Part shown: positions 792 to 6,360 of the stretch, in pieces
Numbering within the stretch: the first letter of the stretch is position 1
How the letters are laid out: every line of letters begins with the position of its first letter
Virus record (IMG/VR): IMGVR_UViG_3300021401_000004
Coordinates: 28,961 to 92,960 of that record
Direction: 5' to 3' (one strand)
Origin: a virus
Length of the DNA: 64,000 nt
Notes under the pieces: generated by a model
Told to the model about the DNA's origin: nothing
Databases searched by the model: none
What the model saw: the letters and a program-made list of their open reading frames with translations, nothing else
Translations under genes and position numbers: made by a program

Positions 792-1205
792 TTGATCCGG
801 AGATACGAGGATCGCGATTTCGCAGATGTCGCTTGGTTAAACCAAGTCTCTTATGCGAAGCCTTGCTCGGATGAAGAACTCCGAGAACGCCTGATGTTGA
901 ATCGGGCATGGGTCTACGAAGATAGCCCGATAGTTGTTGGAGCTTTGATAACTGACGAATATTTCGAGCGAGATTACATCTGGAGCGTCACCGTTGCCCG
1001 CAACTGGCAGAAGCGAGGAATCGCAACAGCTTTGATTGCACAAGCAGAGAAGAACTTCGGAGAACTTCATTTACACACTGAGCCTTTCTCCGAGGGTGCC
1101 CGATTGTACACGAAGCTCGGCTGGAAGCCCGTAAAAACAGAGTTTGACTACTACGGGCCCGGAGCCGATGCTGTTCTGATGGTGAAAAGAAATGTGGACG
1201 TTTAA
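792..1205 (+). CDS. GNAT (RimI-like) acetyltransferase
   Basis: Acetyl-CoA motif V..NWQKRGIATAL, plus A..LY.KLGW and YY..G.DA..M. Confidence 0.8.
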   Translation: MIRRYEDRDFADVAWLNQVSYAKPCSDEELRERLMLNRAWVYEDSPIVVGALITDEYFERDYIWSVTVARNWQKRGIATALIAQAEKNFGELHLHTEPFSEGARLYTKLGWKPVKTEFDYYGPGADAVLMVKRNVDV

Positions 1206-1590
1206 CATCAAAGCCGGGAAAGTATTCCATAACGGAGAATTCTTTTCTACGGGTTGGTCCGGGCATAATGTTCGGGGCGGAGTTCAAGGGCGCAACAATC
1301 CCGCGACTCAGGCTATTAAGGATATTGGATCATTGCCCGTGGGTAAGTATACAGCGGGCACGGCATACGATAGCCCGAAAACAGGGCCCGTGACGATCCC
1401 GTTGTCGCCCAAACCGGGAACAGAAATGTACGGGCGCGACGGCATGAAGATTCACGGTTGGCAAATCGGAACGGACCCGAATGATCCGTATAATCCGTCG
1501 TCTGACGGGTGCATTCAGCAGGGACGCCCGTATCGGGAAGCGATCAATTCGTCGCCCGATAAAGATTGGGAAGTAGTTTCGGGCGAGTAG
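1192..1590 (+). CDS. Tlde1/DUF2778-like L,D-transpeptidase-fold peptidoglycan enzyme
   Basis: GWSG..NNP..Q....G.LP.G.Y and catalytic-type IHG...S.GCI. Confidence 0.65.
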   Translation: MWTFNIKAGKVFHNGEFFSTGWSGHNVRGGVQGRNNPATQAIKDIGSLPVGKYTAGTAYDSPKTGPVTIPLSPKPGTEMYGRDGMKIHGWQIGTDPNDPYNPSSDGCIQQGRPYREAINSSPDKDWEVVSGE

Positions 1591-1859: not shown

Positions 1860-2096
1860 GAACGCAGTCCTCAAGCCTACTAACAGTGCTGAAATCGAGG
1901 TCTATTAAGTCGGGCGGTAGGGCAACTTATCGCCCGCAAATTTTGAGTCGAAGGCCGGATTGCCCGAGACTCCCCAATTACGTGAGGGATTCACCTGGAG
2001 TTCTCTGACTCCAAGCCCGCAAGCCTATCGGATTATAGGTTGCCCGCGAGCGTAGTAGAGCAGCTTCGGCTGAACTTGACCTAAACAGGTGAAACT

Positions 2097-4726
2097 ATGG
2101 GCTATAGCCCGAGTTCTAATAACCAGTCAAACCTGCCTCAGTCCACGGTTCGGTACTACGACAAAAAGTTCCGTTAAATGGTTCTTGCGGAATAGGGTCG
2201 AAGCTCGTGTGCCAAGAAACAGGAGAACCTGAAGGCACAGACGCCGTTCGTCGCGTGTTCCGAACGTTTGGACCTCCCGATGAAATCTGGTAACCAGTAC
2301 AACTTGTATCAAACAGGTACCCTCATCGCGTAAGCGATGTTGAATAACGTGGCTATATCGGGGGATAACTCATTGAGTCAATCCCGAGGGAAGTCTAAGT
2401 GACCCCGTAGAGACTACACGCCGCGCCCCGGAAACGGGTGATGATATAGTCCGCACTTACGGGCGACCGTAAGAGGTTGGCAGTTATACTTGCCCGCCGC
2501 AACAAAATGGATGTATGTTCCCCTCGCGGCCAACACCAGTCAGACGACTGAAGGAACTGTTGGCGCGGGCGTGAGCGTATCTGTACTGAATACCTCGGCG
2601 ACAATCGGTGAGTTGATTTGCGGCTCACCATAAACTTGACTATATCGGTGGACATCTGCTATAATGGCAGACAATACCGAGCCAAGACTAACCGTTTTAC
2701 AAGCCTATTAAATAATCCAAAAGGATGGCTAGAATGTCAGACAAATCAAAATATTCGTACCTCGCTGGAATTATTGATGGCGAGGGCTGTTTTTGCATCG
2801 GAGCTGGACGACGCCAGAAGTGGGGCGTCATCAACTACAATCCGCAGATATTGGTTGGCAATACGGACCATAGATTGACTGCGTGGCTGAAGGAAAACTT
2901 CGGGGGCGTAACTTTTACGCAACGCCCGAATAACCCGAGATGCAAAATTCCGTCTATTTGGCGGTTGTCGAAAAAGAAGGACATGGAACTTCTTATTTTG
3001 GCAATCATGCCTTATCTGATAATCAAAAAAGAGCGTGCAATTGTCTTCCTAGAATTTCTACGGCTTCCGCCGACAATGAATCCCGAACGTCGGGAAGAGT
3101 TGTGGAAACAGTTGTCGATCTTGAATAAACGGGGAGTAGACGTAGAGACTAATACGTCAAGCAGTTCGGAAAACGAACTGAAGATAGAGTCCGAACTTAC
3201 TGGTGACAGTAAGAGTGGCCCTGTGGTGACACAGGAGACGGCGACGCCCGTAATGACTGCCTAAAAACAGCATTCCCAAAACACAGTTGACGCTGATTAC
3301 GCTAACTTCTCCAGCCTCAGTCTGGCGACCGCAATCGACAACACTGTCGAAAACGTCGCCCGAGAGATGGCCTACCGTCTCGGCGAGTCCCTGTCCGCTT
3401 TGGTTCGTGCAACTGCGGACGGCGCGAACTCCGTGGATTCTTCGGTCCTGACCAAACTGGCCGCGACCTCGACCACGAGCTTCACGACTCTCTCCTTGAC
3501 CTACATCCGAAACGCCGTGCAGTCACTTGCTGGGCGTTCGGTTCGCCCGTTTGACGAAGCTTCCAAAAACTTTGCTGGTGTGATCCATTAGGTTGCGGGC
3601 AACCGCATAAGGGTGGATATAAAATTCTCTCTGATTGACTCGAACGCTGAGATGCCAACGAGGGGCAAGTCAATATAGTTCCATAATGGAAACATATTGA
3701 CAGCCTGAACGACTAAGCGAGAGAACGTTCATGTCGCATGAACGATGCAATAGTCTGAACAGTACGGAAAATGAACGTACTGAAGTAAGCAGAAATGACT
3801 TGCTCGGGCAAATCGCCCGTAACAACTTGCCTTTTGCACTCGGCGATGTTTTGGCGGACAACTCGAACGATTCGCCAATCGATATCCTGAAGCGTACTCC
3901 GCAGGGTTACAGCCGCCTGGATGAAATCATCTCGACGGACTTGACCGAAGTCATTGAAATCCCGACTTCCGGCGTAAGCTTCTTCCAGTCAAACTTGGTG
4001 ACCACCAGCCCGAACTACAATCCGGGAACTGGCGCGGTTACGGGCTTGACTGCTCTGCGTACGTATATCTTCGGGCGCGATGGCATTTTCTCCATCAACC
4101 TCGGAGCGCAGGGTGACACCGGATACGGTGACGGTGAGTGGCGGAATATCCGTTTTTCATAATGTTTAGCGGATACAAAATTTCTTCTAATTGACTCGAA
4201 CCCTGGAATGGCAACGAGGCGCAAGTCCAGAAAACGGACAGCGTGAGAGACTAAACGAAGAAACGCCTTCGGGCGATGCAATAGTCCGGTCTTCACAGAA
4301 CAACAAATGTGAAGAGGCAAGCAGAAATGACTTGCCCGTCGAAAGACGTAACACAGACGTGCAACATCGTGCAAAACGCCGAGCCTTCGGTTGCGGACCC
4401 CAGCGGTCTAATTCCGGGGTGGACCAGCTATCGTGTTCACTTCACGACCAGCTTGGGTCCGGATACTACAATCCGTATGTCATGGTAAAGTCCTAATGCG
4501 GATTCAAAACTCAATCTTATTGACTTGAAACCTGAAATGGCAACAAGGCGGAACCCTTCGGGGACCGTGAGAGACTAAGCGATTGAGCGCCTTCGGGCGA
4601 TGCGATAGTCCGAACATACGGAAAACGAACCGTATGAGGTTGGCAGAAATGACCAATCTCAACAGCTTGTAAGTTGTTGATAACAAGGCGATTAGGGAAA
4701 TTGACGCGGCCAGCGCAATCAGCTAA
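2097..4726 (+). CDS. Major capsid protein (N4 gp56-like), 7 exons, 347 aa after splicing
   Basis: Exons 2097-2174, 2223-2309, 2511-2613, 3290-3588, 3830-4153, 4360-4476 and 4691-4726 total 1044 nt in one frame: MGYSPSS..YYDKKFR|ENLKAQTPF..LPMKSGNQYNLY|MYVPL..IGE|YADY..GVIH|PFALGD..NIR|CNIVQN..DPSGLIPGWTSY..TIR|IREIDAASAIS*. Every junction is exon-U / intron-G. Confidence 0.85.
2175..2222 (+). other. 48-nt group-I-like mini-intron lacking a catalytic core
   Basis: Begins with an in-frame TAA. The guide GTTCTT-GCGGAA pairs with 5' exon TTCCGT (U.G at the junction) and 3' exon GAGAAC. Ends in G. No P3-P8. Confidence 0.7.
2310..2510 (+). mobile_element. Group I intron 2 (201 nt, no ORF)
   Basis: P1 GTATC/GGTAC, P3 CGTGGC/GCCGCG, P7 AGAGACTA (2409) with GATATAGTCC (2443), P8 GAAA loop, P9 GCGA loop, terminal G. 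Confidence 0.88.
2614..3289 (+). mobile_element. Group I intron 3 (676 nt) with LAGLIDADG ORF
   Basis: P1 GGTGAGT/GCTCACC, AGAGACTA at 3144, GATAGAGTCC at 3183, terminal G3289. Removal restores E-Y-A-D-Y. Confidence 0.9.
2725..3264 (+). CDS. Single-motif LAGLIDADG homing endonuclease (intron-encoded)
   Basis: YLAGIIDGEGCF, FGG and PYLIIKKERA motifs. Confidence 0.9.
   Translation: MARMSDKSKYSYLAGIIDGEGCFCIGAGRRQKWGVINYNPQILVGNTDHRLTAWLKENFGGVTFTQRPNNPRCKIPSIWRLSKKKDMELLILAIMPYLIIKKERAIVFLEFLRLPPTMNPERREELWKQLSILNKRGVDVETNTSSSSENELKIESELTGDSKSGPVVTQETATPVMTA
3589..3829 (+). mobile_element. Group I intron 4 (241 nt)
   Basis: P1 ATCCAT/GTGGAT, P10 AAGG/CCTT, P3 TTCTCTC/GAGAGAA, P7 GACTA/TAGTC. 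Removal restores VIH-PF. Confidence 0.9.
4154..4359 (+). mobile_element. Group I intron 5 (206 nt)
   Basis: P1 TATCCGT/GCGGATA, P3 TTTCTTC/GAAGAAA, P7 AGAGACTA..AATAGTCC, terminal G4359. Confidence 0.9.
4477..4690 (+). mobile_element. Group I intron 6 (214 nt)
   Basis: P1 AATCCGT/GCGGATT, P10 CCTAAT/ATTAGG, P3 CTCAATC/GATTGAG, P7 AGAGACTA..GATAGTCC, terminal G4690. Confidence 0.9.
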
Positions 4727-4734
4727 CAAGCTGC

Positions 4735-4763
4735 TTGACAAACCGCTTCGGTTTTGCTATACT
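4735..4763 (+). promoter_or_regulatory. sigma70-type promoter for the downstream endonuclease
   Basis: TTGACA-17 nt-TATACT with extended -10 TG. Confidence 0.75.
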
Positions 4764-4851
4764 GATACTAGCTCCGTGAAATTCGGAGCGACAATTGGAA
4801 GGGTCGGGTGCCCAATCACTCGGCCCAACCAGTTCCCTATTGGGAGGGAAT

Positions 4852-5565
4852 GTGGACAAAGGAAATATAGTAGGTCAGAGGTACGAGCGGCTCGAAGTCC
4901 TGATGCCCGCTTGGATAAACGAAAAACAAAATCAAGTTTGGTTGTGCGTCTGCGATTGCGGGCAAATTCGGTTTATCACCACTGCCGTTTGGAATGCCCA
5001 AAGTCGCAAAAGTTGCGGGTGTTTGCGTCGGGAAGTTTCTCGCGGGCAAACAACGGCCATGAATCTGGCACGGGCGGGCCAACCGCGATCCGCCAAAGGC
5101 AAGATAGCGTCTCAAGCAGCTTGCAAGAAAATGAACGCGGTGCGGCACTCTCACGCCCGCCACGTTCTGATTAAAGTAGACCCCGAGCGTTTGGTGGGCG
5201 AATGTGATGTCTGCGGGGCCGTTCCACTCAAGATAATGAAGCACCGCGTCGGCAATCAACGCGACCAATATCTATGTTGGGTGGGTTCTTTGCGGGTTCA
5301 CAACGAATACGCGAATGCGAGAGTCCGTTATCCGAACCACGCCTTGGAAATGTTTAACAAACAGGCCAACGCCTGCGCGGTTTGCGACGGGCAGATGATT
5401 AGGGGCGATGGTTTGGCAAATGACGGTATGGTTCTAGATCACTGCCACACGACGGGCTATATACGCGGGTTTACGCATCAACGATGCAACAAAGGGCTTG
5501 CAATGTTTCTTGATCGTCCGGAAGTATTCCGCAAAGCCGCCGATTACTTGGAAAGAAATCGCTAG
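4852..5565 (+). CDS. Free-standing endonuclease VII-family homing endonuclease
   Basis: GTG start after GGAGGG. N-terminal WLCVCDCG..KSCGC module; C-terminal DHCHTTG.IRG...RCNKGL. Confidence 0.8.
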   Translation: MDKGNIVGQRYERLEVLMPAWINEKQNQVWLCVCDCGQIRFITTAVWNAQSRKSCGCLRREVSRGQTTAMNLARAGQPRSAKGKIASQAACKKMNAVRHSHARHVLIKVDPERLVGECDVCGAVPLKIMKHRVGNQRDQYLCWVGSLRVHNEYANARVRYPNHALEMFNKQANACAVCDGQMIRGDGLANDGMVLDHCHTTGYIRGFTHQRCNKGLAMFLDRPEVFRKAADYLERNR

Positions 5566-6021: not shown

Positions 6022-6040
6022 GGCCCGCACAATTAAGTTT

Positions 6041-6360
6041 GCTCAGTTGAAGTGCTGTTAAGACGTGCAAGACCGGGCTTCGAAGCCCGCAGGTCCACCA
6101 GATCGCCCGTTAAGTCGGTCGGAAAACTTGACTTCGGGTTTGGCTGCCAATATTTGCAAACTGGTAATGGGCGACGTGACGGGCCTGAAATGGATTCGAT
6201 TGCGCGGACGAGATAGCATGGATGGGCACGGATGCTGTGGCCACGTTACGGACACAGAAACAACAACCGCTACGACTAAACCTCGGGCGTTTGCGGCAGC
6301 CGCTTAATAAACGGCCCGCACGGAGTCAGCCGGGAACTCTGGAAAATAATCCCGGCAACT
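6041..6360 (+). ncRNA. ssrA: Circularly permuted (two-piece) tmRNA
   Basis: Acceptor piece ends T-arm-CAGGTCCACCA at 6100. Coding piece starts GGGCCTGAAATGGATTCGA at 6181. 7-bp acceptor stem with G3.U70. Tag frame 6269-6307 reads ATTKPRAFAAAA*. Outer ends are approximate. Confidence 0.85.

What the first reader, a model, noticed from the sequence alone, without database searches (positions are those of the whole stretch)
2097..4726. Major capsid gene split into seven exons
Seen: six insertions, each bounded by exon-U and intron-G with a P1 helix, whose removal gives one 347-aa frame with capsid-like motifs (YYDKK, LP.KSG, EY.DY, IHP, DP....GW.SY). About 60% of the locus is intron and the last exon is 11 codons. 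Known: phage group I introns are mostly single and often in DNA-metabolism genes. Inference: this density in the most highly expressed virion gene is unusual, and gene callers will miss the capsid.
Basis: partly seen in the sequence, partly recalled or inferred. Interest (0 to 1): 0.8.

Follow-up and report, generated by a model that had tools for sequence, protein, structure and literature searches.

The report
Capsid gene: five introns, one mini-intron
The only major capsid gene of this soil phage is cut into seven pieces by five ordinary self-splicing (group I) introns and a 48-base mini-intron. The mini-intron keeps a group I intron's splice-site guides but has no catalytic core, so it probably borrows a neighbouring intron's ribozyme.

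Summary
Removing six inserts from 2097-4726 gives a 347-aa protein colinear at all six junctions with the intron-free major head protein of Tunturiibacter phage Tunturi_3.

Five inserts (I2-I6; 201, 676, 241, 206 and 214 nt) are real group I introns. A covariance model built only from other contigs hits the 64-kb window five times, all at these inserts. I3 carries a LAGLIDADG endonuclease gene.

The sixth insert (I1, 2175-2222, 48 nt, with in-frame TAA and TAG) cannot be an autonomous group I intron because it has no P3-P9 core. It keeps a contiguous guide forming P10 and P1 with the U.G pair, and it ends in G.

Twelve distinct mini-introns of 36-51 nt lie at six sites in related capsid genes from many metagenomes. 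Their P1 and P10 show compensatory changes. Each is followed, 15-88 nt downstream, by a full intron. None of 75 intron-free relatives has one.

Most likely I1 is excised by group I chemistry using a borrowed core, with I2 (87 nt downstream) the prime candidate. No RNA data could be obtained, so this is inferred.

Multi-intron capsid genes are already published for crAss-like phages. This scan has already noted core-less mini-introns on other DNA, in at least 11 genomes. I found no publication describing them.

The parts
2097..2174 (+). Exon 1 (26 codons, MGYSP...YYDKKFR)
   Evidence: tblastn with Tunturi_3 gp6 residues 1-26; spliced frame
2175..2222 (+). I1: 48-nt core-less mini-intron. It starts with in-frame TAA and also holds TAG. 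The guide GGUUCUU+GCGGAA forms P10 with GAGAACC and P1 with UUCCGU (U.G at the 5' splice site). It ends in G.
   Evidence: Exact 16-codon gap against Tunturi_3 gp6. No Rfam or R1 hit. P1+P10 reached by 4 of 20000 shuffles. Identical copy in sister genome G001; diverged homologs of 51 and 46 nt at the same site in L183 and L163.
2223..2309 (+). Exon 2 (29 codons, ENLKAQ...QYNLY)
2310..2510 (+). I2: group I intron, 201 nt, no ORF. It is the nearest complete ribozyme to I1 (87 nt downstream).
   Evidence: Rfam RF00028 51.4 bits, above the gathering score of 50; R1 40.7 bits, E 1e-8
2511..2613 (+). Exon 3 (ends inside the Tyr codon: U|AC)
2614..3289 (+). I3: group I intron, 676 nt, carrying a homing endonuclease ORF
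   Evidence: RF00028 33.6 bits, E 5e-6, on the 3' half; R1 16.5 bits; P1 of 7 bp, and P3 CUUGAC/GUCAAG spanning the ORF, read from the sequence
2725..3264 (+). LAGLIDADG homing endonuclease ORF (179 aa, motif YLAGIIDGEG). It starts in a loop and runs through the 3' half of the I3 core.
   Evidence: Pfam LAGLIDADG_1 23.8 bits against a cut-off of 23.1; phrog_5046 E 4e-17
3290..3588 (+). Exon 4
3589..3829 (+). I4: group I intron, 241 nt
   Evidence: R1 164.2 bits, E 6e-40; RF00028 20.9 bits; absent, exactly at these ends, from sister genome G001
3830..4153 (+). Exon 5
4154..4359 (+). I5: group I intron, 206 nt
   Evidence: R1 163.7 bits; RF00028 15.6 bits; absent from G001
4360..4476 (+). Exon 6
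4477..4690 (+). I6: group I intron, 214 nt; P1 of 7 bp and P10 of 6 bp (AUUAGG/CCUAAU)
   Evidence: R1 173.6 bits, E 3e-42; no Rfam hit; absent from G001
4691..4726 (+). Exon 7 (IREIDAASAIS plus stop)
   Evidence: 11 of 11 identical to the C-terminus of Tunturi_3 gp6

Best explanation
This is the single major capsid gene of a Tunturi_3-like podophage of Acidobacteriota, a 93-kb IMG/VR genome.

Shown: the gene is interrupted six times, and exact removal of the inserts restores a 347-aa capsid protein. Five inserts (I2-I6) have the sequence and covarying structure of compact group I introns. I3 also encodes a LAGLIDADG homing endonuclease.

Inferred from what is known of the family: these five excise themselves from the pre-mRNA by the usual two guanosine-initiated transesterifications. 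Each has an in-frame stop within eight codons of its 5' splice site, which would keep ribosomes out of the folding ribozyme.

The sixth insert, I1, is a non-autonomous relic of such an intron. It retains only the substrate side: P1 with the U.G pair, an adjacent P10 guide and a terminal G. It has no core.

Inferred: I1 is removed by the same chemistry when its pre-formed P1/P10 helix and terminal G dock into the catalytic core of a complete intron on the same transcript. I2, 87 nt downstream, is the most likely helper. Related phages carry the same kind of mini-intron at five other sites in this gene, always just upstream of a complete intron.
For: Colinearity: Tunturi_3 gp6 aligns in seven pieces with no residue lost or gained at any junction.

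Natural intron-minus alleles: G001 lacks I4, I5 and I6 precisely. 75 of 80 IMG/VR relatives have no intron.

Group I identity: RF00028 hits I2 above the gathering score and I3, I4 and I5 below it. Model R1, built from 15 introns of other contigs, gives exactly five hits in 64 kb, all here. RNAalifold on 23 family members finds compensatory changes in 32 of 35 pairs.

The gene is functional: window and G001 differ at 70 coding positions, with 59 synonymous codons and 0 replacements. This holds only if I1 and G001's own 43-nt mini-intron are removed.

I1 as a substrate-only intron: a 7+7 bp P1+P10 guide is reached by 4 of 20000 shuffles.

The class: twelve distinct mini-introns lie at six sites. 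At site e, the four P1 variants CUGGUU/GACCAG, CCGGCU/GGCCGG, CUGGCU/GGCCAG and CCGGUU/GACCGG track two synonymous exon positions exactly. P10 also changes on both sides at sites a and e.

Dependence on a helper: every mini-intron has a full intron 15-88 nt downstream, and L190 has no other intron. No intron-free relative has a mini-intron. No group I core lies elsewhere in G000 or G001.

Plausibility: engineered group I ribozymes do excise internal segments in trans (PMC2532722, PMC4509937).
Against: Splicing of any of the six inserts, and above all of I1, is inferred.

No natural group I core is known to accept a foreign P1/P10 helix in vivo.

For I1 itself I found no significant pairing that would tether it to exon 2 or to I2. 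The tail-to-exon duplex has z -0.7. Tails do not pair better with their own partner intron than with others (permutation p 0.12).

I2's own P1 is only 4 bp.

Site-b mini-introns sit upstream of two unrelated partner introns (I2-type in L183, a LAGLIDADG intron in L163). The helper is therefore not specified by sequence.
Confidence: 0.6

Rival explanations
1. I1 is a minimal but autonomous group I intron that splices without any other intron's core, perhaps stabilised by pairing with the 3' exon. This has been claimed for the 56-81-nt introns of fungal SSU rDNA.
For: PMC3160393 reports 63-75-nt fungal introns with P1, P7, P10 and an intron-to-3'-exon helix, and cites in vitro splicing of the 67-nt PaSSU. 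Several phage mini-introns also pair with the downstream exon.
Against: I1 has about 30 nt outside its guide. I saw no P7-like helix or guanosine pocket, though I did no dedicated search for one. The strict company of a full intron 15-88 nt downstream, and the absence of mini-introns from 75 intron-free genes, would be unexplained.
Confidence: 0.08
2. I1 stays in the mRNA and the ribosome hops over it, as in the translational bypass of T4 gene 60. Take-off would be at CGU, which lies in the 5' arm of a hairpin and is followed at once by UAA.
For: The gap is 48 nt (50 nt in gene 60). A stop codon directly follows codon 26, and the P1 hairpin holds the take-off codon.
Against: There is no matching landing codon before GAG: the codon there is CAG. 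The in-frame CGA inside I1 would add seven residues that no homolog has. Bypass does not explain the P10 complementarity or its covariation. Related mini-introns of 37, 40, 43 and 46 nt split codons. At site e, hopping from GGU to the next GGN would drop the nearly invariant Trp.
Confidence: 0.05
3. I1 is cut out and the exons are rejoined by proteins (an RNA endonuclease plus a ligase of host or phage) that recognise the hairpin, not by a ribozyme.
For: Nothing direct. It would not require a core to accept a foreign helix.
Against: The conserved features are exactly those that group I chemistry needs: U.G at the 5' site, a terminal G, and P10 next to P1. Mini-introns share sites and guide sequences with full introns, for example after GAU|AAG in L168 versus L025. 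The link with a downstream full intron would be a coincidence.
Confidence: 0.1
4. I1 is dead: a core deletion that inactivated this capsid allele, or an assembly error.
For: The record is a metagenome assembly, and the window and G001 are identical from 2054 to 3312. Those two are therefore not independent witnesses for I1.
Against: Diverged homologs of 51 and 46 nt lie at the same site in other metagenomes with P1 and P10 kept. The same 37-nt and 48-nt site-e mini-introns recur in four and three different metagenomes. Coding differences from G001 are 59 synonymous and 0 replacement. It is the only capsid gene match found in the window.
Confidence: 0.03

Closest known systems
Self-splicing group I introns of phages (T4 td, nrdB, sunY; Staphylococcus phage Twort orf142 with three introns; crAss-like Delta/Zeta phages, one with three group I introns in its capsid gene, PMC10136315)
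   Same: I2-I6 have U at the 5' splice site paired with G, a terminal G, a P3-P9 core with a conserved P7, early in-frame stops, one endonuclease ORF, and precise intron-minus alleles in relatives. The host gene is a highly expressed core gene.
   Different: This gene holds five complete introns plus a mini-intron, against a published maximum of three that I could find. The exons are short (36-324 nt). All group I cores found in the genome lie in this one gene.
Small 'degenerate' group I introns of fungal nuclear SSU rDNA (Phialophora PaSSU, Porpidia, Arthonia; 56-81 nt; PMC3160393)
   Same: Tiny inserts that keep P1 and P10 and lack most of the core. A helix between the intron and the 3' exon is proposed there, and is seen here in relatives' mini-introns at sites c, e and f.
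   Different: The phage elements are smaller (36-51 nt) and lie in a protein-coding gene of a virus. No P7 was noticed in them. They always sit just upstream of a complete intron. The fungal ones are reported to splice alone.
Engineered trans-excision-splicing ribozymes and 'spliceozymes' (PMC2532722, PMC4509937)
   Same: A group I core removes an internal segment of another RNA and joins the flanks. This shows that the chemistry does not need the core to be part of the excised segment.
   Different: Those are laboratory constructs in which the ribozyme carries the guides. Here the guides are in the excised segment and the helper would have to accept a ready-made P1/P10 helix.
Group III and other degenerate group II introns of Euglena plastids (from my own knowledge, not checked here)
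   Same: Very short descendants of self-splicing introns, thought to depend on catalytic parts supplied by other introns.
   Different: A different intron class, chemistry and host.
T4 gene 60 translational bypass (from my own knowledge)
   Same: A gap of about 50 nt with a stop right after the last decoded codon, and a hairpin at that codon.
   Different: There are no matched take-off and landing codons. Guide complementarity to both flanks is unexplained by bypass.

Membership tests
Group I intron (Rfam RF00028), inserts I2-I6 | 5' exon ends in U paired with G of an internal guide (P1); the intron ends in G | tested here: met
   Read from the sequence at all five junctions. P1 is 6-7 bp, except I2 with 4 bp.
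Group I intron (Rfam RF00028), inserts I2-I6 | Conserved catalytic core (P3-P8 with P7) recognised by a covariance model | tested here: met
   RF00028: I2 51.4 bits (gathering score 50), I3 33.6, I4 20.9, I5 15.6, I6 none. Model R1, built from other contigs: 173.6, 164.2, 163.7, 40.7 and 16.5 bits. 32 of 35 pairs covary. By Rfam's own threshold only I2 is a member.
Group I intron (Rfam RF00028), inserts I2-I6 | Removal restores a reading frame colinear with intron-free homologs | tested here: met
Group I intron (Rfam RF00028), inserts I2-I6 | Self-splicing with guanosine | not testable with these tools
Group I intron, insert I1 | P1 with U.G, P10, terminal G | tested here: met
   UUCCGU/GCGGAA and GAGAACC/GGUUCUU; 4 of 20000 shuffles reach this
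Group I intron, insert I1 | Catalytic core P3-P9 with a guanosine-binding P7 | tested here: not met
   Only 48 nt; no hit with RF00028 at E up to 10 or with R1
N4-gp56 family major capsid protein (TIGR04387) / HK97 fold | Score above the curated cut-off; HK97-like fold | tested here: inconclusive
   The intron-free homolog L004 scores 43.4 bits, E 2.6e-11, against a cut-off of 60. phrog_1357 'major head protein' gives E 1.2e-16. A profile search against PDB gives weak hits to capsid chains (E 0.002-0.06). The AlphaFold model was unusable (pLDDT 31.7). The spliced window protein itself could not be submitted.
LAGLIDADG homing endonuclease (ORF in I3) | Pfam LAGLIDADG_1 above the gathering score; LAGLIDADG motif | tested here: met
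   23.8 bits against 23.1; motif YLAGIIDGEG. Endonuclease activity was not tested.
Programmed translational bypass (T4 gene 60 type), insert I1 | Identical take-off and landing codons flanking the gap | tested here: not met
   Take-off would be CGU; the codon before GAG is CAG
Small degenerate group I introns of fungal rDNA (PaSSU type), insert I1 | P1, P7, P10 plus a helix between the intron and the 3' exon | tested here: inconclusive
   P1 and P10 are present. No P7 was noticed, without a dedicated search. The I1-to-exon-2 duplex is no better than shuffles (z -0.7), while relatives' mini-introns at sites c, e and f do show such a helix (p 0.04 or less).

The most novel reading that the evidence does not exclude
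I1 and its eleven relatives are natural non-autonomous group I introns. They are substrate-only elements (P1, P10, terminal G) that persist in an essential gene because a complete intron a few dozen bases downstream lends them its catalytic core. They would stand to self-splicing introns as MITEs stand to transposons, and they would be a natural example of one ribozyme splicing two introns.
Probability: 0.55. Interest if true: 0.9.

Novelty: new variant of a known kind. Interest (0 to 1): 0.8.

Why it matters
Gene callers will not find the capsid gene of this phage or of many of its relatives. Capsid-based classification and host-linking of soil viromes will therefore miss them.

Biologically, the locus is an extreme case of intron crowding in a gene that must be expressed at very high levels.

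The mini-introns matter most. If they are removed with a borrowed core, they show that a group I ribozyme in nature can act on a splice-site helix that is not its own. That would be a step from self-splicing toward a shared, spliceosome-like catalyst. It can be tested directly with a short in vitro transcript.

Tried and rejected

2. Fold of the capsid protein: AlphaFold on a 24-sequence alignment of intron-free homologs gave pLDDT 31.7, so no fold search was run.

3. Per-exon Pfam and PHROG searches were nearly empty. Homology needed the full-length relative.

4. Metagenome scan with an exon-anchored pattern for site-b inserts: 120 or more hits, almost all chance. The one real hit was the source contig of G001.

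5. Guide-pattern scan for site b in viral contigs: 15 hits, of which only L183 and G001 were real.

6. De novo scan of G000 and G001 for further P1+P10 signatures: beyond the capsid mini-introns, the hits were no more than shuffles give.

7. Base pairing between mini-intron tails and their partner introns: no cognate signal (p 0.12).

8. A tether between I1 and exon 2: not better than shuffles. The helix UGUGCC/GGCACA in the minimum-energy fold is unsupported.

9. Stop-codon read-through or recoding: rejected, because TAA ends both the capsid gene and the I3 ORF.

10. Literature searches for core-less or helper-dependent group I introns in phages found nothing.
Full report
**Where the window lies.** The window is bases 28961-92960 of a 92,960-bp IMG/VR virus record that CheckV rates as complete. 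Its closest cultured relative is Tunturiibacter phage Tunturi_3. That is a 97.6-kb podophage of an Arctic tundra acidobacterium (PMC11924767). The paper on it does not mention introns. In Tunturi_3 the gene order is terminase, portal, two unnamed genes, acetyltransferase, then the major head protein gp6 (343 aa, uninterrupted).

**Check of the observation.** I ran tblastn of gp6 against the window. It gave seven colinear pieces on the + strand between 2097 and 4726 and nothing comparable elsewhere. After one correction of a single base at the exon 4 end, the exons are:
- 2097-2174
- 2223-2309
- 2511-2613
- 3290-3588
- 3830-4153
- 4360-4476
- 4691-4726

Joined, they give 1044 nt, or 347 aa. The product aligns with gp6 end to end with a single 4-residue indel, and no residue is lost or gained at any junction. 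All six inserts follow a U and end in G. Introns make up 60.3% of the locus, and the last exon has 11 codons.

**Five inserts are group I introns.**
- Rfam RF00028 scores I2 above its gathering score (51.4 against 50). It scores I3, I4 and I5 below it (33.6, 20.9 and 15.6 bits) and misses I6.
- For a test that does not lean on the window, I collected homologous introns from other IMG/VR contigs and aligned 15 of them (A3). I built covariance model R1 from that alignment.
- R1 finds exactly five matches in the 64-kb window: I6 173.6 bits, I4 164.2, I5 163.7, I2 40.7 and the 3' half of I3 16.5.
- On a 23-member alignment, RNAalifold recovers P3, P6, P8, P9 and P9.1. Compensatory changes occur in 32 of 35 pairs.
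- The P7 strands (GACU and AGUC) are invariant.
- I3 carries a 179-aa LAGLIDADG ORF. The ORF starts in a loop and runs through the 3' half of the core.
- A family HMM finds no further copy anywhere in the genome or in its sister genome.

**Natural intron-minus alleles.** A sister genome, G001 (91,482 bp, with terminal repeats), is about 94% identical. It lacks I4, I5 and I6 exactly at my coordinates. Of the 80 best IMG/VR relatives, 75 have no intron. Five have one intron with an endonuclease VII-type ORF after the Asp22 codon.

**The first insert is different.** I1 (2175-2222) is 48 nt long and in frame, and it holds TAA and TAG. It must be removed to join ...KKFR to ENLK.... It is far too short for a ribozyme core and matches neither model. 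Yet it contains one contiguous guide. GCGGAA pairs with the exon end UUCCGU, with the U.G pair at the splice site (P1). The adjoining GGUUCUU pairs with the first bases of exon 2, GAGAACC (P10). Only 4 of 20000 shuffles of the insert reach this.

**The same kind of element recurs.**
- G001 has the identical I1, and also a 43-nt insert after the Ala304 codon with its own 7-8-bp P1 and 6-bp P10.
- Spliced alignment of other relatives gave twelve distinct mini-introns of 36-51 nt at six sites, from at least ten metagenomes.
- Site b, the I1 site, also holds diverged versions of 51 nt (L183) and 46 nt (L163).
- Sites a and c hold a full-length intron in other genomes.

**The helices are under selection.** At site e, four variants carry P1 as CUGGUU/GACCAG, CCGGCU/GGCCGG, CUGGCU/GGCCAG and CCGGUU/GACCGG. 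Every combination of two synonymous exon positions is matched in the guide. P10 changes on both sides at site e (GGACAAG/UUGUCU against GGACGAG/UCGUCU). It does the same at site a (AAGAAAUU/AAUUUCUU against AAGAAGUU/AACUUCUU).

**The gene is alive.** The window and G001 differ at 70 coding positions in 59 codons, all synonymous. The two spliced proteins are identical, although each uses a different set of introns.

**Where the mini-introns sit.** Each of the twelve is followed by a short exon of 15-88 nt and then a complete group I intron. In L190 that downstream intron is the only other one in the gene. None of the 75 intron-free genes carries a mini-intron.

In six of the twelve (sites c, e and f), the tail of the mini-intron pairs with the end of the intervening exon, ending 6-12 nt before the partner's 5' splice site. 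This pairing is better than shuffles (p 0.04 or less), and there are compensatory changes among the site-e variants.

For I1 itself this tether is not supported (z -0.7). Tails do not pair preferentially with their own partner intron.

**Mechanism.** I conclude that I2-I6 self-splice in the ordinary way. I1 is a non-autonomous descendant of a group I intron. It is most likely excised by the same chemistry in a core that it does not encode, and I2 is the nearest candidate. The first part rests on family membership. The second part is inference from anatomy, covariation and co-occurrence.

The rivals are autonomous minimal splicing, ribosomal bypass, protein-mediated excision, and a dead allele. 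They are weighed in their own section. Bypass fails on the absent landing codon and on the unexplained P10.

**Comparison with what is known.**
- Several group I introns in one phage capsid gene are published: three in a crAss-like Zeta phage (PMC10136315).
- Tiny degenerate group I introns with P1, P7, P10 and a 3'-exon helix are described in fungal rDNA and are said to splice alone (PMC3160393).
- Engineered group I ribozymes excise segments in trans (PMC2532722, PMC4509937).
- I found no paper on core-less introns in phages, or on introns that depend on a neighbour's core.
- Earlier notes of this scan describe the same class in at least 11 other genomes, and on this genome. I re-derived the points I use.

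**Limits.** No RNA data were available. The fold prediction failed. The window and G001 are identical from 2054 to 3312, so they count as one witness for I1. The independent support comes from L183, L163 and the other sites.

Noticed in passing
window 6040-6307 (+): Rfam tmRNA_permuted (RF04321) scores 65.8 bits against a gathering score of 47. This is a two-piece, circularly permuted tmRNA gene in a phage genome. It is about 99% conserved in sister genome G001.
   Followed up: no
whole genome; in the window e.g. 3763, 4617, 6695, 6851: The motif TAC(G/A)GAAAA(C/T)G occurs 57 times on both strands of the 93-kb genome. Two copies lie in the P9 hairpin loops of I4 and I6, and similar loops occur in related introns. 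It may be a promoter or a protein-binding site that the introns share. This is unexplained.
   Followed up: partly
window 4795-5565 (+), promoter-like site 4735-4763: A free-standing endonuclease VII/HNH-type gene lies directly after the capsid gene (Pfam Endonuclease_7, 48 bits). It is preceded by TTGACA-17 nt-TATACT. Tunturi_3 has no gene there. Relatives carry similar ORFs inside the intron at the Asp22 site. It is a possible helper for intron homing.
   Followed up: partly
window 2054-3312 versus G001: This tract, from just upstream of exon 1 to 23 nt past I3, is 100% identical between the two genomes. Exons 4 and 5 are only about 94% identical. Eight differences cluster at 3313-3324. The pattern looks like a recent gene-conversion tract ending next to the LAGLIDADG intron.
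   Followed up: partly
L163:4726-5784 (+): In this relative, a 46-nt mini-intron at the I1 site is followed by a 15-nt micro-exon (GAGAACCUGAAGGCU). A 998-nt intron with a double-motif LAGLIDADG ORF comes next. The micro-exon is almost wholly paired to the two guides.
   Followed up: partly
window 1192-1590 (+): A 132-aa ORF with a Tlde1 domain (PF10908, 30.9 bits against a cut-off of 30.1) lies between the acetyltransferase and the capsid gene. Tunturi_3 has only a 222-nt spacer in that gap.
   Followed up: no
About a third of the fetched loci hold it in or beside a homolog of this capsid protein, including distant ones at about 36% identity.
   Followed up: partly
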